From a virus: 64,000 bases of DNA. A model generated the notes under the pieces. The model had not been told where the DNA came from and did not search any database. It saw only the letters and a list, made by a program, of their open reading frames with translations. The stretch spans positions 32,001-96,000 of the IMG/VR virus record IMGVR_UViG_3300045988_122072; one strand, 5' to 3'. The position numbers were made by a program, and so were the translations under genes. Positions 3,798-64,000 of this stretch are shown in pieces (the first letter of the stretch is position 1; every line of letters starts with the position of its first letter).

Positions 3798-4994
3798 TTA
3801 AAGTTTTATATTATATTCTACGACGTTTCCTTTGCCTTTCTCTAAAACGAATAGGGTAGCACCAGGATCAGACGCTTTATTTAAAGATAACGAATAATCA
3901 TCAACACCTATAATGCTAGGAACACTAATAATATCAGATTCAATTCCGACATTGCTACTTGACTTATGATGCTTGTGTCCACCAATTAAATAATCAATAT
4001 GTACCTTATAAATTCTAGAAAAGTCTTTAATCGCTTGTTCAAGGGACTTTCCTTCACCATGATACCCAAAAATATTATATCCGGCAATTTGATCAAATAC
4101 ATAGCCAGTAGGATTCTGAATGAATTCAAAATTAGGATTATCTCCAAGTCTATCCATAAGCTTATCTGTAATAATATATGATACATTTTCATCCTTGAAT
4201 GTATTTTTAGGTTGTCCCAACATCCTAAGTTGACAATGATTAGAATCTTTCACCATTTGATATCTAACTTTTACATACTTGGTTAATTCATTTAACCACT
4301 CTGTAATAAAACGTCCATATCTCGCGGTGCTTTCGATAACTCCATATCTTAATTTCATAAGTGCAGAGACTCTTAAACATCCCTCAATTTCGTCGCCAAG
4401 ATCATAAACATTTAGTATATCAAAGCCTTCTTTATTACAAATCTGAAGAACTTGATTAAGTAAATTCCACATTCTTTTTTCAAAAATTTCAGGAGAATAT
4501 TCATTTAAAATTTCCCCAAAAAGTCCTTGAATACATAAATCTTTCCCATAATGAGGATCTGCAAAAACTAAGTTTCCAAACCTTGTATTATATTTTGGCT
4601 CAATGACACGAGGAATATCTAGCTTTGGCATTTCTCTAATTGCCTCGGCAATATGTTCTGCGATAAGTTCTTCTCTTGCTTCTTCTCTAAGCCATCTATT
4701 ATATTCCACTTTTTCTGTCTGCAGCTTTTTACGTTCCTTTTCAATGCCTTTACGTTCAGAACGAATTTTTTCAAGATATTCATCTTCTGTAAAAAATGCA
4801 CCTTCATTTGCTTCCATCATTTTATTAAAACTCTGCACTTTTTTTCTATATGCACTCTCACCGTAGTTATATCCAAGAGATTCATTTAATATGTCTGCAA
4901 TATTTTGCCACGTCCATCCTTGTGACTCTTTCATGGAGCATATGCGCAGTATATATTGCTCTTCGTTTTCATTACTTAATTTATCATAACTCAT
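3798..4994 (-). CDS. calcineurin-like metallophosphoesterase with N-terminal helix-turn-helix-like region
   Basis: 398 aa with phosphoesterase motifs FADPHYG (DxH), DLGDEIEG (GD), GYHGEG and GGHKHH (GHxH). GGGGTGG SD. Confidence 0.7.
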   Translation of the reverse strand: MSYDKLSNENEEQYILRICSMKESQGWTWQNIADILNESLGYNYGESAYRKKVQSFNKMMEANEGAFFTEDEYLEKIRSERKGIEKERKKLQTEKVEYNRWLREEAREELIAEHIAEAIREMPKLDIPRVIEPKYNTRFGNLVFADPHYGKDLCIQGLFGEILNEYSPEIFEKRMWNLLNQVLQICNKEGFDILNVYDLGDEIEGCLRVSALMKLRYGVIESTARYGRFITEWLNELTKYVKVRYQMVKDSNHCQLRMLGQPKNTFKDENVSYIITDKLMDRLGDNPNFEFIQNPTGYVFDQIAGYNIFGYHGEGKSLEQAIKDFSRIYKVHIDYLIGGHKHHKSSSNVGIESDIISVPSIIGVDDYSLSLNKASDPGATLFVLEKGKGNVVEYNIKL

Positions 4995-59797: not shown

Positions 59798-60661
59798 ATG
59801 GGTGGCGGTTCTTGGACGAGAGATAACTTTACTAGCTATGTAACTACTGCAAAGTGTGCAATGGTAGACGATTTTGGTGTTGTCAGAGGACTAAATAGTG
59901 TTCAGGATAATTTTAAATCGAGATGCCTAGTGGCGGAGCTTAATCCTAAAAATGTTGTTCGCGAGTGTGTAGATTCCGCAGAGCATCCCAATACAAAGCC
60001 TGTTATTCTAGCACTCGATGTCACTGGTAGTATGGGCAGTGCAGCCATGGAAGTTGCAAAGCAGATCAATGTTGTTATGACAAGCCTATATGAGAAGATG
60101 ACAGATGTTGAATTTATGATTATGGGCATTGGAGATCTTGCTTATGATAACGCTCCAATTCAGGCATCTCAGTTTGAATCAGATATCAGAATCGCAGAAC
60201 AGCTTGATAAAATTTATTTTGAGGGCGGTGGCGGCGGCAATTCTTATGAGTCCTATACTGCCGCATGGTATTTTGGGCTTAATCATACCAAACTAGATTG
60301 TTGGAATCGTGGGCAGAAGGGTGTTATTATTACAATGGGTGATGAACCTTTGAATCCGTATCTGCCTAAGAATACTCTATCTGTTGCGACTGGTGATAAC
60401 CTACAGGATGATGTTGAGACAGCTCAGCTTTACAAGGATGCTTCTGAGAAGTTTGATATCTACCATTTGTATGTAAAGCATGGGTATGGTCGTTATGAAG
60501 AAGCCGTTAAGGATACTTTCGGCAAGTTTCTTGATACGAATCATCTCAAGACTACATCTGTAAATAAGATTGCAGATGACATTATTGAGATTGTAACAAA
60601 TGCATTTACTGGAAGCGATACAAGTACATTTGTAAATACTAGCGAAGGAATTTCTTGGTAA
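59798..60661 (+). CDS. von Willebrand factor A (vWA) domain protein
   Basis: MIDAS-type ILALDVTGSMGS, followed by alternating beta/alpha-like segments (IITMGDEP). Confidence 0.7.
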   Translation: MGGGSWTRDNFTSYVTTAKCAMVDDFGVVRGLNSVQDNFKSRCLVAELNPKNVVRECVDSAEHPNTKPVILALDVTGSMGSAAMEVAKQINVVMTSLYEKMTDVEFMIMGIGDLAYDNAPIQASQFESDIRIAEQLDKIYFEGGGGGNSYESYTAAWYFGLNHTKLDCWNRGQKGVIITMGDEPLNPYLPKNTLSVATGDNLQDDVETAQLYKDASEKFDIYHLYVKHGYGRYEEAVKDTFGKFLDTNHLKTTSVNKIADDIIEIVTNAFTGSDTSTFVNTSEGISW

Positions 60662-60675
60662 GAGGAGATAAACAC

Positions 60676-61824
60676 ATGTCTAATGTTAAAGTAGTAATCG
60701 GTAGCAATTTTGGGGACGAAGGAAAAGGATTGATGACTGATTATTTCTGCGCAGAAGCAAAAAAGCGGAATGAATCCTGTATTGTTGTTTTATCTAATGG
60801 CGGAGCGCAGAGAGGGCACACTGTGGTTACGCCAGATGGCATTAGACATGTGTTTCATCATTTTGGTTCTGGCACTTTTGCAGAAGCCCCTACATATTTT
60901 AGTGAGCAATATATTTTGAATCCTATGACTTTCAGAAAAGAGCATGAAGAATTGGATTCTTTAGGCTTTAAGCCACTCGTTTGTGCTCATTGGAATTGCA
61001 GATGGTCAACGCCGTATGACGTGATCGTAAATCAAATTCTTGAAGATAGTCGTGGAGAAAATCGACATGGATCTTGCGGCATGGGAATCTGGGAAACTAT
61101 CTGCAGATATACAAGTACTGGAGCACCATCATTGCGGCACTTTAATATGATGAGTGAAGAATATAAAGTTCAATTTCTAAAAAATATTAGAGATAAATAT
61201 ATGCCGCAGAGATTAGCGTCTGCGAATCCAGATGTAGTAAAACAGTGGGAAGAAATTCTATATTCTGATAATCTAATTTATAATTTTATTGCGGACATTC
61301 AGTTCATGTGTTCGCATATGGTTTTTGATTATGGACGCATATTGAGACGATATGACAATGTTGTATTTGAAAATGGGCAAGGTCTGCTACTAGATCAGAA
61401 CCAGACAAGATACGGAGACAATACAACTCCTAGCAATACTGGAATTCAGAACCCGCATGTGATTATTGAAAAGTATTTATTTGGCGCTAACGTTGAAGTG
61501 TGTTATGTTACAAGAACATACCTAACAAGACATGGTGCTGGGGCTTTTGATGGTGAATGTGATAAATCTGAAATCAATGGTTCTATGAAAGATAAGACCA
61601 ATGTGCCAAATCCGTATCAGGGCAGTATTCGATATGGTAAGCTGGATGTTAATGAACTTGTAAACAGAATCAAAAAGGATATTGGGGAGCATTCTTATAA
61701 TGTATCTTTGGCAGTGACACATTTGAACGAGTTTGAAAACAAAGAGTTATTGGCACTAAAGGAACTAAATGTTAAGTATTTGTCTTATAATGAGACTAGA
61801 AAATTAACAGAAAAAATTTCCTGA
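60676..61824 (+). CDS. adenylosuccinate synthetase (PurA)/PurZ-family enzyme, divergent
   Basis: 382 aa. GSNFGDEGKGLMTDY (PurA P-loop GDEGKGK), GGAQRGHT (GGHNAGHT), FENGQGLLLD (FEGAQGTLLD) and TRHGAGAF (TRVGAGPF). The TKLD guanine box is replaced by THLN. Confidence 0.75.
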   Translation: MSNVKVVIGSNFGDEGKGLMTDYFCAEAKKRNESCIVVLSNGGAQRGHTVVTPDGIRHVFHHFGSGTFAEAPTYFSEQYILNPMTFRKEHEELDSLGFKPLVCAHWNCRWSTPYDVIVNQILEDSRGENRHGSCGMGIWETICRYTSTGAPSLRHFNMMSEEYKVQFLKNIRDKYMPQRLASANPDVVKQWEEILYSDNLIYNFIADIQFMCSHMVFDYGRILRRYDNVVFENGQGLLLDQNQTRYGDNTTPSNTGIQNPHVIIEKYLFGANVEVCYVTRTYLTRHGAGAFDGECDKSEINGSMKDKTNVPNPYQGSIRYGKLDVNELVNRIKKDIGEHSYNVSLAVTHLNEFENKELLALKELNVKYLSYNETRKLTEKIS

Positions 61825-61830
61825 AAGTAC

Positions 61831-61858
61831 TTGACAAATAAAAAATATATGATATAAT
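61831..61858 (+). promoter_or_regulatory. sigma-A type promoter (AGACAG subclass)
   Basis: acTTGACAAATaaaaaatataTGaTATAATatGGACAGT, with the leader box at 61881. Confidence 0.7.
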
Positions 61859-61910
61859 ATGGACAGTTGAAAGAAACAAAACAAAATTAATTGAAAAGGA
61901 GCAAGAAAAA

Positions 61911-62240
61911 ATGATTAAGTATTATCACCTGAGCGATGGCACGACGATTGGCGAGCTGCGGGGTACAAAGTATGACTGTATTAACCGGATTGCAAAGGCA
62001 ATGGGTATGACAAAGAGCCTGTGCTTCGATCCTAGTAAGTATCTTATGAATGATGTCTTCAAGGCTGCGTCTAAGCCCTATGGCGGCGACGAGTACGACA
62101 AGGAATATGGCGAACAGGAAGTAAAGCGCAAGGTCATGCGGAAGTATTATAAGCAGCTTGATAGACTGTCTTCTGCGTTCGTAGAGGATCTCAATAAGGC
62201 GATGTTCGAAGCATCTTGGCGGCTTACAAAAAATTCTTAA
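61911..62240 (+). CDS. hypothetical protein (109 aa)
   Basis: AAAGGAG SD. Confidence 0.7.
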   Translation: MIKYYHLSDGTTIGELRGTKYDCINRIAKAMGMTKSLCFDPSKYLMNDVFKAASKPYGGDEYDKEYGEQEVKRKVMRKYYKQLDRLSSAFVEDLNKAMFEASWRLTKNS

Positions 62241-62247
62241 AAACCTC

Positions 62248-62275
62248 TTGACAAATAAAAAATTTATGATATAAT
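62248..62275 (+). promoter_or_regulatory. sigma-A type promoter (AGACAG subclass) driving the structured-RNA array
   Basis: ctcTTGACAAATaaaaaatttaTGaTATAATacAGAtAGT, with the leader box at 62295. No SD or CDS follows for about 540 nt. Confidence 0.7.
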
Positions 62276-62340
62276 ACAGATAGTTCAAGACAATACAAAA
62301 TTAAAGTTCCTGAGCACGAACTGAAAAGGCTCAACTATAT

Positions 62341-62464
62341 GCGATGATAGTCAAATGGTTAAGACGGCAGCGATTATTTTGAAGTGTCTAGCTAGACATG
62401 AACAGCAAGTTTGCAAAATTAATGCTCCAAGCTGCAATTGTGGGTTCGATTCCTACTCATCGCA
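62341..62464 (+). tRNA. tRNA-like gene 1 (Trp-like features) with 59-nt segment in place of the 7-nt anticodon loop
   Basis: Acceptor GCGATGA (62341-47) / TCATCGC (62457-63). D arm TA-GTCA..GAC. Anticodon-stem strands GCAGC (62367-71) / GCTGC (62431-35). T arm GTGGG-TTCGATT-CCTAC (62440-56). The last loop nt read CTCCAA. Confidence 0.55.
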
Positions 62465-62472
62465 ATCATATG

Positions 62473-62590
62473 TCTCCTGTAGCTCAGTCGGGTAGAGCGC
62501 TTAATAACGAGACTTGTAAAAGCCTTAAACAGCAAGTTTCTAACTGGTCTGTTAAACCAGAGGTCACAGGTTCGAGCCCTGTCAGGAGAC
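62473..62590 (+). tRNA. tRNA-Asn(GUU)-like gene 2 with 44-nt insertion between D arm and anticodon arm
   Basis: Acceptor TCTCCTG / CAGGAGA. D arm GCTC-AGTCGGGTA-GAGC. Anticodon arm CTGGT-CTGTTAA-ACCAG (62544-60). Variable AGGTC. T arm ACAGG-TTCGAGC-CCTGT. The insertion at 62500-62543 forms its own 8-bp hairpin. Confidence 0.6.
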
Positions 62591-62596
62591 TTTAAA

Positions 62597-62651
62597 AAGG
62601 CACTAGCAGCAACTTTAAACAATATGCTGGATATTATATTGATGGTGCCTT
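62597..62651 (+). ncRNA. minihelix unit 3 (7-bp closing stem plus CAGCAA box)
   Basis: AAGGCAC (62597-603) / GTGCCTT (62645-51). The box TAGCAGCAACTTT follows the stem directly. Inner stem CAGCA/TGCTG. Confidence 0.4.
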
Positions 62652-62661
62652 GCCTTACATA

Positions 62662-62729
62662 GAGACGCTTACAGCAATTTAAAAAAGATGAAAATGATAT
62701 TTTTACTAATGATTTTATTTTGGCGTCTC
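62662..62729 (+). ncRNA. minihelix unit 4
   Basis: GAGACGC (62662-68) / GCGTCTC (62723-29). The box TTACAGCAATTT follows the stem directly. Confidence 0.4.
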
Positions 62730-62744
62730 GTTGAATAAACTCCA

Positions 62745-62798
62745 AAGACACTAACAGCAAATTTTTAATGTTGGAGATTGTACATAAGAATGTGTCTT
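62745..62798 (+). ncRNA. minihelix unit 5
   Basis: AAGACAC (62745-51) / GTGTCTT (62792-98). The box TAACAGCAAATTT follows the stem directly. Confidence 0.4.
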
Positions 62799-62835
62799 GG
62801 GATTTAGAAATAAATCAAAAATGGAGGAAAGAAAA

Positions 62836-64000
62836 ATGTCTTTTATGAATGCAGTAAAGAATACTCTGAACGAGGATTTCAACTATTCGGTGACTGAGAA
62901 TGGTGCTCTTGGGTATCGTACTTCTGGCAAAGAACTGACTGACCTAAACTTTGCCGTTGCTTCTATGCGCGGTATGAACGAGAAGACCATCTATGATAAG
63001 TTCACGAAGGCTTATTTCGAAGACAAGATGATGGCTTTACGTTGGTTATTTTTCGCAAGAGATGTTCGTGGCGGTCTTGGCGAGAGACGTTTGTTCAGAA
63101 CGGTTCTTAAAAATATGGTAAAGGACGACCCCAATACTGTTAAACGTCTTGCCTGTCTGGTGAGCGAGTATGGCCGTTATGATGACCTGTGGTGTCTGTT
63201 TGGAACGGATGTGGATGGTGTTGTTTTCGATATCATTAAGAAGCAGCTTTCTGATGACATCGCAAATATGGCAGAGAATAAACCCGTATCTCTTCTTGCT
63301 AAGTGGCTCCCTTCCGTAAATGCTTCTTCTACAAGAACTAAGATGAATGCAAGATATATTTGCAAGAATCTTAGTATGACTGAGCGTGAGTATCGTAAGA
63401 CACTTTCTTCTCTTCGTTCTTACATTGATATTGTAGAGAGCAAGATGTCTGCAAAGAAGTGGGAAGACATTAAGTATGAAACGGTTCCTTCTCGTGCAAA
63501 TCTCATTTATAACAGAGCTTTCCTTCGTAATGATGAGGAGCGTCGCAGAGAGTATCTGAGTAAGCTCGAAAATGGTGAAGCTAAGATTAATGCGGGAACT
63601 TTGTTTCCTCACGACATTGTGCATAAGTATTCTAGCACAACTGGATGGGGCTGCCGCGTCAACGAGTACGATGCAACTCTTGAATCTCTTTGGAAGGCTT
63701 TGCCTGACACAGTAAATGGGTGTGGAAACACCATTGTAGTCGCAGACAGTTCTGGCTCTATGTGTTGCAATATTGGTGGAAATACTCATATTGCAGCACT
63801 TGAAGTTGCGAATGCACTTGCAATTTACTTTGCAGAACATTCTTCTGGTGACTTTAAGGATAAGTACATTACTTTCTCTAGCAGACCTCAATTGGTTGAT
63901 TTTAGTCAGTGCAATTCTCTAAGAGATAAGCTTCGTGTTGCATATAGTCATAGTGAGTGTTCAAATACGAACATTGAAAAGGTGTTTGATTTGATTCTTA
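62836..64000 (+). CDS. DUF2828-type protein (helical N-domain plus C-terminal vWA/MIDAS), 3' end outside window
   Basis: Not in the ORF track because there is no stop before the window end. GGAGG SD. TENGALGYRTSG, LAKWLPS, YETVPSRANLIYNRAFLRNDEERRREYL, KINAGTLFPHDIV and MIDAS VVADSSGSM match my memory of the DUF2828/UCP015417 vWA family. Confidence 0.8.
   Translation, partial: MSFMNAVKNTLNEDFNYSVTENGALGYRTSGKELTDLNFAVASMRGMNEKTIYDKFTKAYFEDKMMALRWLFFARDVRGGLGERRLFRTVLKNMVKDDPNTVKRLACLVSEYGRYDDLWCLFGTDVDGVVFDIIKKQLSDDIANMAENKPVSLLAKWLPSVNASSTRTKMNARYICKNLSMTEREYRKTLSSLRSYIDIVESKMSAKKWEDIKYETVPSRANLIYNRAFLRNDEERRREYLSKLENGEAKINAGTLFPHDIVHKYSSTTGWGCRVNEYDATLESLWKALPDTVNGCGNTIVVADSSGSMCCNIGGNTHIAALEVANALAIYFAEHSSGDFKDKYITFSSRPQLVDFSQCNSLRDKLRVAYSHSECSNTNIEKVFDLIL

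What the first reader, a model, noticed from the sequence alone, without database searches (positions are those of the whole stretch)
62401..62800. Five copies of a CAGCAA box, three of them opening minihelix units closed by 7-bp stems
The box is T-W-R-CAGCAA-N-TTT. Its CAGCAA cores start at 62403, 62530, 62607, 62672 and 62755. In units 3-5 the box begins immediately after the 5' strand of a perfect 7-bp closing stem of consensus RAGRCRC: AAGGCAC/GTGCCTT, GAGACGC/GCGTCTC and AAGACAC/GTGTCTT. The arrangement stem + TA/TT + (G/A)CAGC mimics a tRNA acceptor stem followed by positions 8-9. Unit 3 reuses the GCAGC...GCTG pairing seen in the anticodon stem of tRNA-like gene 1. So the 460-bp non-coding stretch looks like an array of five related structured RNA modules under one strong promoter (62248-62275), not random spacer.
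Basis: seen in the sequence. Interest (0 to 1): 0.8.

Follow-up and report, generated by a model that had tools for sequence, protein, structure and literature searches.

The report
Y-RNA-like partners of phage Ro60
The five CAGCAA boxes mark a conserved small-RNA module that sits beside a Ro60-like RNA-binding protein gene in phages of many bacterial groups, so these RNAs are most likely that protein's undescribed partner RNAs, counterparts of Y RNAs.

Summary
Five CAGCAA boxes lie on one strand in 360 bp, between a perfect sigma-70 promoter and a gene whose product (Pfam DUF2828/DUF7788) models as a Ro60 ring plus vWA domain.

- **The module.** One helix strand ends in ..GRCRC and is followed by NNA-CAGCAA-NUUU. 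The partner strand reads GYGYCUU-G.
- **Two arrangements.** Units 3-5 are free hairpins closed by this helix. In boxes 1-2 the same module, circularly permuted, is grafted into two tRNA-shaped genes. One is a tRNA-Asn(GUU)-like RNA with an extra arm; the other is probably derived from tRNA-Gly.
- **Specificity.** A covariance model built on the module hits only units 3-5 in the 64-kb window. It gives 179 hits in 84 related loci, all on the gene's strand. All 7 stem pairs show compensatory changes.
- **Breadth.** The module flanks DUF2828 genes down to about 33% identity. Examples are Listeria phage P100, Felix O1-like coliphages, Vibrio phage KVP40, and Staphylococcus, Bacillus, Campylobacter and Mycobacterium phages.
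- **Link to Y RNAs.** Some relatives enclose a permuted tRNA-like domain of the YrlA type.

Best reading: these are Y-RNA-like ligands of a divergent phage Ro60, with a binding motif not found in Rfam 15 or in the literature I could search. Binding itself is inferred, not shown. I class it as a new variant of a known kind.

The parts
62248..62275 (+). Promoter of the RNA array and the downstream gene: TTGACA, 16 nt, TGATATAAT (extended -10).
   Evidence: 12/12 consensus match with TG. No terminator-like site anywhere in 61700-63000.
62341..62464 (+). tRNA-like gene 1. It has a standard acceptor stem (GCGATGA/TCATCGC), D arm and T arm. Its anticodon stem GCAGC/GCTGC (62367-71 / 62431-35) encloses 59 nt instead of a 7-nt loop.
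   Evidence: Rfam tRNA 48.7 bits against a gathering score of 29. ARAGORN does not call it. Orthologues in L005, L011 and L012 keep the arms with compensatory changes, and it is absent from L003, L009 and L010. The 3' end of the insert reads ..GCUCCAA, which is like the anticodon loop of tRNA-Gly(UCC). The identity stays ambiguous after in-silico deletion.
62384..62412 (+). Module 1, hairpin form: GUGUCU-AGCU-AGACAU (62384-62399), linker GAA, box CAGCAA (62403-62408), then GUUU.
   Evidence: Read from the sequence. It has the same strand-A/linker/box consensus as the free units. Orthologous hairpins covary, for example GTGACTA/TAGTCAC in L005.
62473..62590 (+). tRNA-like gene 2: a tRNA-Asn(GUU)-like RNA with 44 extra nt (62500-62543) between G26 and the anticodon stem. 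The anticodon arm is intact: CUGGU-CUGUUAA-ACCAG (62544-62560).
   Evidence: Rfam tRNA 42.6 bits. Deleting the insert in silico makes ARAGORN call tRNA-Asn(gtt) in 100 of 168 deletion variants. RNAalifold on 16 homologues gives a cloverleaf plus an extra hairpin, and 20 of its 26 pairs show compensatory change.
62509..62539 (+). Module 2, hairpin form: GAGACUU-G-UAA-AAGCCUU (62509-62526, with one A.C mismatch), linker AAA, box CAGCAA (62530-62535), then GUUU.
   Evidence: The extra hairpin has 7 pairs in the RNAalifold consensus, with changes on both sides. L012 has GUGUCUU-GGGA-AAGACGU at the same place. The alternative minimum-free-energy pairing, in which the box itself is base-paired, is broken in L011 and L012.
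62597..62652 (+). Unit 3, free form: AAGGCAC, linker UAG, box 62607-62612, a 32-nt interior, GUGCCUU, then G.
   Evidence: Model R1 gives 29.0 bits, E 3.9e-5. The homologous unit in L019 and L020 encloses a whole tRNA-like body.
62662..62720 (+). Unit 4, free form: GAGACGC, linker UUA, box 62672-62677, an AU-rich interior, GCGUCUC, then G.
   Evidence: Model R1 gives 41.3 bits, E 1.9e-8. The unit is conserved with loop indels that are not multiples of 3 in close relatives.
62745..62799 (+). Unit 5, free form and the one nearest the gene: AAGACAC, linker UAA, box 62755-62760, interior, GUGUCUU, then G. It ends 37 nt before the start codon.
   Evidence: Model R1 gives 37.2 bits, E 2.4e-7. L015 (53% aa identity) keeps only this unit upstream, with the same stem, between the promoter and the RBS. 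L019 and L020 show the compensatory variant AAGACGC/GCGUCUU.
62836..64000 (+). Gene for the Ro60-like protein (DUF2828 + DUF7788/vWA with a DxSxS MIDAS motif). It runs off the window; full length is about 512 aa in L018. The RBS GGAGGA is at 62823-62828.
   Evidence: Pfam DUF2828 E 7.9e-36 and DUF7788 E 5.2e-12. PHROG 850 is named 'RNA-binding protein'. The AF2 model of a 95%-identical homologue has Ro60/Rsr structures as its six best PDB matches, over the full length.

Best explanation
The 550-nt leader is a polycistronic array of five small non-coding RNAs. They are the cognate RNA partners of the Ro60-like (DUF2828-vWA) protein encoded just downstream, and so are counterparts of bacterial Y RNAs (YrlA/YrlB).

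Shown:
- Each RNA carries one copy of a two-strand module. One helix strand ends in ..GRCRC and continues as single-stranded NNA-CAGCAA-NUUU. Its partner strand reads GYGYCUU-G.
- In units 3-5 the helix is formed by the RNA's own 5' and 3' ends, as in canonical Y RNAs.
- In tRNA-like genes 1 and 2 the same module, circularly permuted into a hairpin, is grafted onto a tRNA body. This gives a protein handle plus a tRNA-shaped domain, which is the two-module logic of YrlA.

Inferred:
- The ring protein binds the helix plus the single-stranded box.
- The array is transcribed from the promoter at 62248 together with the gene, and is cut into units by tRNA-processing enzymes.
- The resulting particles act on RNA. 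By analogy with Ro-Y RNA particles they would tether or gate an exonuclease or an RNA-repair enzyme, or serve as an anti-defence device.
- Binding to the gene-proximal unit may also feed back on the protein's own translation.
For: 1. **The protein is Ro60-like.** The six best PDB matches of the AF2 model are Ro60/Rsr over 505-558 aligned columns (E 8e-6 to 2e-4). The DxSxS MIDAS motif is invariant.
2. **Tight, strand-specific linkage.** Box density is 7.5 per kb on the gene strand against 0 on the other strand just upstream of 78 non-identical loci. All 179 R1 hits in 84 loci are on the gene strand. Of 120 loci found by the motif alone, 44 carry a DUF2828 homologue, always on the same strand, down to about 33% identity.
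3. **RNA-level constraint.** All cells are paired, 7 of 7 pairs have compensatory changes and G-U pairs occur. The hairpin-form helices also covary.
4. **Specificity.** R1 hits only units 3-5 in the 64-kb window. In the complete 131-kb genome of Listeria phage P100 it hits only the two sites directly upstream of gp165.
5. **Breadth.** Modules flank the gene in Mycobacterium phage Nicholasp3, Listeria P100, Staphylococcus BE02, Bacillus Thrax3, Felix O1-like garuso, Vibrio KVP40 and Campylobacter F357.
6. **Link to Y RNAs.** Some units enclose a T arm, then an acceptor hairpin, then a D arm, which is the YrlA topology. L136 5356-5467 scores 50.3 bits on Rfam YrlA (E 2.5e-8).
7. **L015 has modules but no tRNAs.** It carries one unit in the 5' UTR and four after the gene.
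8. **Precedent.** Y RNAs lie upstream of rsr on the same strand, are processed from one precursor, and carry a short conserved motif on the 5' strand (PMC4201824). Phage phiLo Ro60 binds two RNAs encoded upstream of its gene (PMC12135203).
Against: - No binding, transcript or processing data exist for any member. The protein-RNA pairing rests on guilt by association.
- The box is unlike the known Ro60-binding motifs (GGUCCGA, GNCGAAN0-1G).
- The protein has no detectable sequence similarity to Ro60, and the structural match is moderate (TM about 0.45 on a model with pLDDT 72.5).
- Modules also occur between ordinary tRNAs several kb from the gene, or without a detected gene in the stretch held (L102, L113, L119, L120). 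A tRNA-array function independent of the protein is therefore not excluded.
- One sampled DUF2828 phage (Staphylococcus Alsa_4) shows no convincing module within 3 kb.
Confidence: 0.62

Rival explanations
1. The modules are purely cis-acting leader elements. They would be operators or attenuators that control translation or stability of the DUF2828 mRNA, not stand-alone RNAs.
For: - One unit almost always sits 87-110 nt before the start codon.
- No terminator separates the array from the gene.
- In Vibrio phage KVP40 the single module's loop holds the Shine-Dalgarno sequence, and its 3' strand contains the start codon.
Against: - Five to nine copies occur per locus.
- Copies lie downstream of the gene (L014, L015, Nicholasp3, Staphylococcus BE02, garuso) and inside tRNA arrays kb away.
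- Copies are grafted into tRNA bodies.
- In the window, unit 5 does not touch the RBS.

This rival is compatible with the main explanation as an added autoregulatory role.
Confidence: 0.15
2. The modules are punctuation or processing signals of phage tRNA-array transcripts. A host or phage RNase would read them, and the nearby Ro60-like gene would be just another resident of the tRNA region.
For: - In L119 and L120, R1 hits sit exactly between neighbouring tRNAs, within a few nt of their ends.
- Many DUF2828 genes lie in or next to tRNA arrays.
Against: - L015, KVP40 and Nicholasp3 have modules next to the gene but no tRNA in the 2.5-4 kb held on either side, and Staphylococcus BE02 has none next to its modules.
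- In whole P100, R1 finds no modules inside the 18-tRNA array, only beside gp165.
- RNase P and RNase Z read shape, not a 6-nt box that stays invariant from Actinobacteria phages to Proteobacteria phages.
Confidence: 0.12
3. Boxes 1 and 2 mark a new kind of short protein-dependent intron. It would be removed, with the ends rejoined by an RtcB-type ligase, to give working tRNA-Gly and tRNA-Asn.
For: - Deleting the insert restores a canonical tRNA-Asn(GUU).
- The anticodon loop CUGUUAA is kept in many lineages.
- RtcB, an Rnl-type ligase and phosphoesterases lie just downstream of the gene in P100.
Against: - The same module exists as free hairpins with nothing to splice.
- The insertion sites differ (26/27 against the 5' side of the anticodon loop).
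- No endonuclease is known or evident.
- Close relatives also carry an ordinary tRNA-Asn(GTT).
- No RtcB was seen among the window proteins I scanned.
Confidence: 0.06
4. It is a DNA-level repeat (recombination site, iteron or miniature mobile element) with no RNA function.
For: L013 and L017 carry a deletion whose ends lie in boxes 4 and 5, so the repeats do recombine.
Against: - The strand bias relative to the gene is absolute.
- Compensatory changes and G-U pairs occur in the stems.
- The location lies downstream of a consensus promoter.
- The modules are embedded in tRNA-shaped genes.
Confidence: 0.02

Closest known systems
Bacterial and phage Y RNAs of the YrlA/YrlB type (Rfam RF02553; Chen et al. 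2014, PMC4201824)
   Same: - They are encoded next to a Ro60-type gene, on the same strand, often several in a row and processed from one precursor.
- The terminal helix carries a short conserved motif on its 5' strand.
- A second domain mimics tRNA.
- Some relatives of this array (L136 5338-5460, L152, L161) have the very same permuted order of T arm, acceptor hairpin and D arm.
   Different: - The conserved motif is NNA-CAGCAA-NUUU after a GRCRC strand, not GNCGAAN0-1G.
- The window's RNAs score at most 26 bits on the YrlA model, whose gathering score is 69.
- The window's two tRNA-like RNAs keep normal tRNA ends, with the handle grafted inside.
- The partner protein belongs to another sequence family (DUF2828, not Pfam TROVE).
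- Chen et al. searched only genomes annotated as having a TROVE-domain protein.
Thermus phage phiLo Ro60 with Yrl1/Yrl2 (PMC12135203)
   Same: A phage-encoded Ro60 ring has two stem-bulge-stem RNAs encoded just upstream of its gene, and binding has been shown in vitro.
   Different: Those RNAs were picked by a CGAA motif. No tRNA graft and no CAGCAA box are described.
Felixounavirus Bas63 gp130 (PhageMaP preprint, PMC11482910)
   Same: It appears to be the same kind of protein: a Ro60-like fold, directly upstream of the tRNA array of a Felix O1-like phage. A Felix O1-like homologue in phage garuso carries four modules in that array. The authors guessed that some 'tRNAs' might be Y RNAs.
   Different: No RNA was identified there. 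The reported phenotype is countering the Ppl defence system. I did not check directly that Bas63 gp130 is a DUF2828 member.
Intron-containing and disrupted tRNA genes (group I introns in bacterial tRNAs; archaeal bulge-helix-bulge introns at non-canonical positions)
   Same: A tRNA gene is interrupted by extra sequence, once in the anticodon loop and once at the 26/27 junction.
   Different: At 44-59 nt the insert is far too small for a group I intron. No bulge-helix-bulge motif was seen on reading the junctions. The insert is the same module that also exists free-standing.
ROOL, GOLLD and drum RNAs (phage-associated structured RNAs found near tRNAs)
   Same: They share the genomic neighbourhood. 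A ROOL-like RNA lies just upstream of the modules in P100, and a drum RNA lies in L019.
   Different: Their sequences and structures are unrelated. No Rfam family matches the modules.

Membership tests
Y RNA (functional class) | Bound by a Ro60 orthologue in vivo | not testable with these tools
   No binding data exist. This is inferred only from linkage.
Y RNA (functional class) | Encoded close to the Ro60-type gene and on the same strand | tested here: met
   The array ends 37 nt before the gene. Strand bias is absolute in 84 loci, and same-strand linkage holds in 44 of 44 motif-first loci that carry the gene.
Y RNA (functional class) | Helix formed by the RNA's 5' and 3' ends, carrying a conserved protein-binding motif on the 5' strand | tested here: met
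   This holds for units 3-5, whose 7-bp closing stems covary and are followed by the box. In boxes 1-2 the helix is a local hairpin instead. Transcript ends have not been mapped.
YrlA (Rfam RF02553) | Reaches the family's gathering score (69 bits) | tested here: not met
   The best window hit scores 26 bits and bridges the T arm of gene 1 and the D arm of gene 2, so it is an artefact of adjacency. The best relative, L136, scores 50.3 bits.
YrlA (Rfam RF02553) | GNCGAAN0-1G motif near the 5' end | tested here: not met
   The consensus of 259 unique contexts is aaRGRCRC-nnA-CAGCAA-nUUUa.
YrlA (Rfam RF02553) | Permuted tRNA-like domain (T arm, then closed acceptor hairpin, then D arm) | tested here: not met
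   In the window, both tRNA-like genes have ordinary topology and units 3-5 have no T arm. The permuted domain is present in relatives L136, L152 and L161.
tRNA (Rfam RF00005) | Cloverleaf that passes the gathering score | tested here: met
   48.7 and 42.6 bits against 29.
tRNA (Rfam RF00005) | Contiguous 17-nt anticodon arm at the canonical place, so that a standard finder calls it | tested here: not met
   ARAGORN finds 0 tRNAs in the window. Gene 1 has 59 nt in place of the 7-nt loop. Gene 2 has 44 nt between G26 and the anticodon stem.
Ro60 / TROVE proteins | Pfam TROVE domain or sequence similarity to solved Ro60 structures | tested here: not met
   Only DUF2828 and DUF7788 are hit. Neither phmmer nor a profile search finds a Ro60 chain in the PDB sequences.
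Ro60 / TROVE proteins | Alpha-helical repeat ring followed by a vWA domain with a MIDAS motif | tested here: met
   The six best Foldseek matches are Ro60/Rsr over the full length (E 8e-6 to 2e-4, TM 0.38-0.46). vWA and MIDAS domains follow in the ranking. D304-x-S306-x-S308 is invariant. The model's confidence is only moderate (pLDDT 72.5).

The most novel reading that the evidence does not exclude
The CAGCAA module is a portable handle by which a pan-phage Ro60-like ring captures tRNA-shaped RNAs. The tRNA-Asn-like and tRNA-Gly-like RNAs that carry the handle inside their bodies would then be working parts of a new anti-defence or tRNA-repair particle. They could be tRNAs escorted or shielded by the ring, decoys for anticodon-directed nucleases, or precursors whose handle is cut out and the tRNA resealed by phage RtcB/Rnl ligases. 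On this reading they are more than passive Y-RNA look-alikes.
Probability: 0.2. Interest if true: 0.92.

Novelty: new variant of a known kind. Interest (0 to 1): 0.8.

Why it matters
Ro60-Y RNA particles are known from animals, some bacteria and a few phages. The DUF2828 branch of Ro60-like proteins matches 711 GenBank phage records, among them well-studied phages such as Listeria phage P100, Vibrio phage KVP40 and Felix O1-like coliphages, and no RNA partner has been assigned to it.

This finding gives a concrete candidate partner that can be searched for. It has a sharply defined motif and a working covariance model. It also explains why these genes sit at phage tRNA arrays.

One Felix O1-like protein with a Ro60 fold, in the same genomic position, was recently reported to counter the Ppl defence system. 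The RNAs may therefore be the missing half of an anti-defence particle.

The tRNA bodies carrying an internal protein handle are a structural arrangement I have not seen described. They are also missed by ARAGORN.

Tried and rejected
- **ARAGORN on the window** found no tRNAs. The tRNA-like genes are seen only by the Rfam covariance model.
- **blastn of 61800-64000 against GenBank phages** found no relative beyond a 40-nt tRNA piece.
- **Single-sequence folding of each unit** gave z-scores of only +0.3 to -2.1. This is uninformative; comparative data were needed.
- **MFE pairing of box 2.** The predicted pairing GAGACUUGU/GCAAGUUUC is rejected because it breaks in L011 and L012. The alternative hairpin upstream of the box is kept instead.
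- **One permuted Y RNA spanning genes 1 and 2.** I considered an RNA running from box 1 to box 2, with T arm 1 followed by D arm 2, as the weak YrlA hit suggests. I rejected it because the two acceptor halves in between (UCAUCGC and UCUCCUG) are not complementary, and each gene has its own perfect 7-bp acceptor stem.
- **Unit 3's GCAGC/GCUG pairing** is not conserved.
- **The 113-aa reverse ORF 62419-62760** is rejected as coding. It overlaps the tRNA-like genes, and close relatives differ by 1-2-nt indels in the loops.
- **A different RNA-binding protein next to modules that lack a nearby DUF2828 gene** was looked for, and none was found.
- **Literature searches** for DUF2828, Ro60 with phage, and TROVE with phage found no description of these RNAs.
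Full report
**Anatomy of the region**

Downstream of a perfect sigma-70 promoter (TTGACA-16-TATAAT with TG, 62248-62275) there is no terminator-like site before the ATG at 62836. The interval holds five elements, all on the + strand.
- tRNA-like gene 1, 62341-62464.
- tRNA-like gene 2, 62473-62590.
- Three hairpin units, each closed by a perfect 7-bp stem: 62597-62652, 62662-62720 and 62745-62799.

ARAGORN finds no tRNA in the whole window. The Rfam tRNA model scores the two genes 48.7 and 42.6 bits against a gathering score of 29, with 59 and 57 nt looped out of the alignment.

Reading gene 2 by eye shows a complete tRNA-Asn body. The anticodon arm CUGGU-CUGUUAA-ACCAG (62544-62560) is intact. 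The extra 44 nt (62500-62543) lie between G26 and the anticodon stem. After in-silico deletion, ARAGORN calls tRNA-Asn(gtt) in 100 of 168 boundary variants.

Gene 1 keeps its acceptor stem, D arm, T arm and a 5-bp anticodon stem. That stem encloses 59 nt whose 3' end (..GCUCCAA) looks like the 3' part of a tRNA-Gly(UCC) loop. Its identity stays ambiguous.

**Checking the observation**

The five CAGCAA cores are at the stated coordinates, and the three stems are as described. Five of the window's 15 WRCAGCAA matches lie in these 360 bp, all on one strand.

**Comparative evidence**

The protein downstream has many relatives in IMG/VR contigs of about 100-170 kb.
- In 78 loci with non-identical upstream regions, CAGCAA occurs at 7.5 per kb on the gene strand in the 250 nt before the start codon, and never on the other strand. 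A second peak lies just after the stop codon.
- The consensus of 259 unique contexts is aaRGRCRC-nnA-CAGCAA-nUUUa.
- In a fixed register, 50% of boxes have a perfect 7-bp partner downstream (free form). A further 12% have one just upstream (hairpin form). The figures at random positions are about 8% and 2%.

I built a covariance model (R1) from 45 trimmed units, modelling the stem and the box only.
- In the 64-kb window it finds exactly three matches up to E = 10: units 4, 5 and 3, at 41.3, 37.2 and 29.0 bits.
- In 84 related loci it finds 179 matches, every one on the gene strand.
- On the 109 distinct matches, all 763 stem cells are paired and all 7 pairs show changes on both sides (158 cells). 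The covariation score is 0.611 against 0.231 in shuffles, and G-U pairs occur. That alignment is fitted to the model, so the percentage paired is inflated. The variety of pair types is not.
- A nearly invariant unpaired G follows the 3' strand. The same G follows the equivalent strand of the hairpin form.

The module is therefore a two-strand motif that exists in two circular permutations. RNAalifold on 16 homologues of gene 2 gives a cloverleaf plus an extra 7-bp hairpin directly before the box, and 20 of the 26 pairs are compensated.

**The neighbouring gene**

The ORF from 62836 matches Pfam DUF2828 and DUF7788 and PHROG 850, which is named 'RNA-binding protein'. It has no sequence match to any PDB chain.

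An AF2 model of a 95%-identical full-length homologue has pLDDT 72.5. Its six best PDB matches are Xenopus and human Ro60 and Deinococcus Rsr, over the full length (E 8e-6 to 2e-4, TM about 0.4-0.46). vWA/MIDAS domains follow in the ranking. The DxSxS MIDAS motif is invariant.

So the gene encodes a divergent Ro60-like ring. SEA-PHAGES annotators already call the mycobacteriophage members 'Ro-like RNA binding protein'.

**Breadth of the module**

tblastn finds the protein in 711 GenBank phage records. In nine sampled records the module, or its ACAGCAA core with a closing stem, lies next to the gene on its strand in at least seven.

| Phage | Modules |
|---|---|
| Mycobacterium phage Nicholasp3 | two, just after the gene |
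| Listeria phage P100 | three, just before the gene |
| Staphylococcus phage BE02 | three, after the gene |
| Bacillus phage Thrax3 | four |
| Felix O1-like coliphage garuso | four in the tRNA array, stems AGACCR/YGGUCU-G |
| Campylobacter phage F357 | two |
| Vibrio phage KVP40 | one; its loop holds the Shine-Dalgarno sequence and its 3' strand holds the start codon |

In the complete P100 genome (131,384 bp, both strands) R1 gives only two matches up to E = 1. Both lie directly upstream of gp165. R1 contained no Listeria phage sequence.

In the reverse test, a degenerate pattern for the motif was scanned over IMG/VR and returned 120 stretches. Of these, 44 hold a DUF2828 homologue (33-94% identity), always on the same strand. 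Relatives also occur in the genomes of gut Clostridia, mostly Lachnospiraceae and Oscillospiraceae, and again carry modules. This suggests the window's host range.

**Link to Y RNAs**

Several units in relatives enclose tRNA-like domains.
- L019 2680-2806 and L136 4671-4786 enclose a whole tRNA. The box is the joint between the closing stem and the acceptor stem.
- L136 5338-5460, L152 and L161 enclose a T arm, then a closed acceptor hairpin, then a D arm. This is the permuted topology that defines YrlA.
- L136 scores 50.3 bits on Rfam YrlA (E 2.5e-8, below the gathering score of 69).

Known Y RNAs are encoded upstream of rsr on the same strand and are processed from one precursor. They carry a short conserved motif (GNCGAAN0-1G) on the 5' strand of the terminal helix, and they pair a Ro-binding module with a tRNA-like module (PMC4201824). 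Thermus phage phiLo Ro60 binds two RNAs encoded upstream of its gene (PMC12135203).

The present array has the same logic with a different motif, a different protein family and an additional topology, in which the handle is grafted inside a normal-ended tRNA.

**Mechanism**

Shown:
- The module, its covariation and its strand-specific linkage to the gene.
- The Ro60-like fold of the protein, at moderate model confidence.
- Co-orientation under one promoter with no terminator-like site.

Inferred:
- The ring binds the helix plus the single-stranded ACAGCAA-NUUU.
- The array is cut into units, probably by RNase P and RNase Z at the tRNA-like bodies.
- The particles act in RNA surveillance, RNA repair or anti-defence.

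Context for the inferred steps: P100 has RtcB, an Rnl-type ligase and phosphoesterases just downstream of the gene. A preprint reports that a Felix O1-like protein with a Ro60 fold, sitting directly upstream of the tRNA array, counters the Ppl defence system. Its authors guessed that some 'tRNAs' might be Y RNAs, without identifying any (PMC11482910).

**Caveats**

- Modules also occur between ordinary tRNAs, kb away from the gene or without a detected gene in the stretch retrieved (L102, L113, L119, L120).
- I could not test whether every module-bearing phage encodes the protein.
- The pattern scan must include some chance hits. My estimate, not a tool result, is about 2e-10 per position.
- No Rfam 15 family matches the modules, and five literature searches found no description. 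The searchable library is incomplete, however.

**Verdict**

The best explanation is an array of Y-RNA-like ligands of a divergent phage Ro60 with a new binding motif. That makes it a new variant of a known kind. It is of high interest because the protein family is widespread in well-studied phages and has had no RNA partner assigned.

Noticed in passing
window 60655-61824: The 389-aa ORF is adenylosuccinate-synthetase-like (Pfam PF00709) and matches PHROG 1211, named '2-aminooxy adenylosuccinate synthetase'. That makes it PurZ-like, so the phage may replace adenine with 2-aminoadenine.
   Followed up: no
window 61831-61858 and 62248-62275: Two identical-quality consensus promoters (12/12 with a TG extension) lie 417 bp apart. 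The first drives a 109-aa ORF of unknown function. The roughly 60-nt promoter cassette recurs in related loci.
   Followed up: partly
L005 8778-8897; L010 8162-8281 and 9002-9130; L011 6610-6739; L019 1542-1664: Other phage tRNA genes in these arrays carry a different insert of about 45-60 nt in the anticodon loop, with a conserved GGGGCAG(C/T)ACC core. This is a second, unrelated class of short tRNA interruption.
   Followed up: no
L223 1468-2019 (Listeria phage P100, record 124572-125123): A ROOL-like RNA (86 bits, E 2.5e-16, just under the gathering score of 99.1) lies between tRNAs, directly upstream of the three CAGCAA modules and the Ro60-like gp165. RtcB (gp160), an HD phosphohydrolase (gp162), an RNA ligase (gp155) and a phosphoesterase (gp151) follow on the same strand.
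   Followed up: partly
L227 2960-2999 (Vibrio phage KVP40): The only module here wraps the ribosome-binding site. GAGGA is in its loop, and the start codon of the Ro60-like gene (2995) is inside its 3' stem strand. This suggests translational autoregulation.
   Followed up: partly
L019 976-1091: A drum RNA (RF02958, 56.5 bits, above its gathering score of 43) sits in the tRNA array upstream of the modules.
   Followed up: no
L005 6164-6240; L119 1721-1795: Suppressor-type tRNAs with anticodon CTA occur in related phage tRNA arrays. ARAGORN labels them tRNA-Pyl. They hint at stop-codon reassignment.
   Followed up: no
L013 and L017, about 3910-3965: The 5' half of unit 4 is fused to the 3' half of unit 5, giving a hybrid stem AAGACGC/GTGTCTT with one G-U pair. 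This is a deletion between two boxes, so the repeats recombine.
   Followed up: partly
window 62418-62526: A weak Rfam YrlA match (26 bits, E 0.0045 in the 1.1-kb search) arises because the T arm of tRNA-like gene 1 is followed by the D arm of gene 2. It is an adjacency artefact, but it was the first pointer to Y RNAs.
   Followed up: yes
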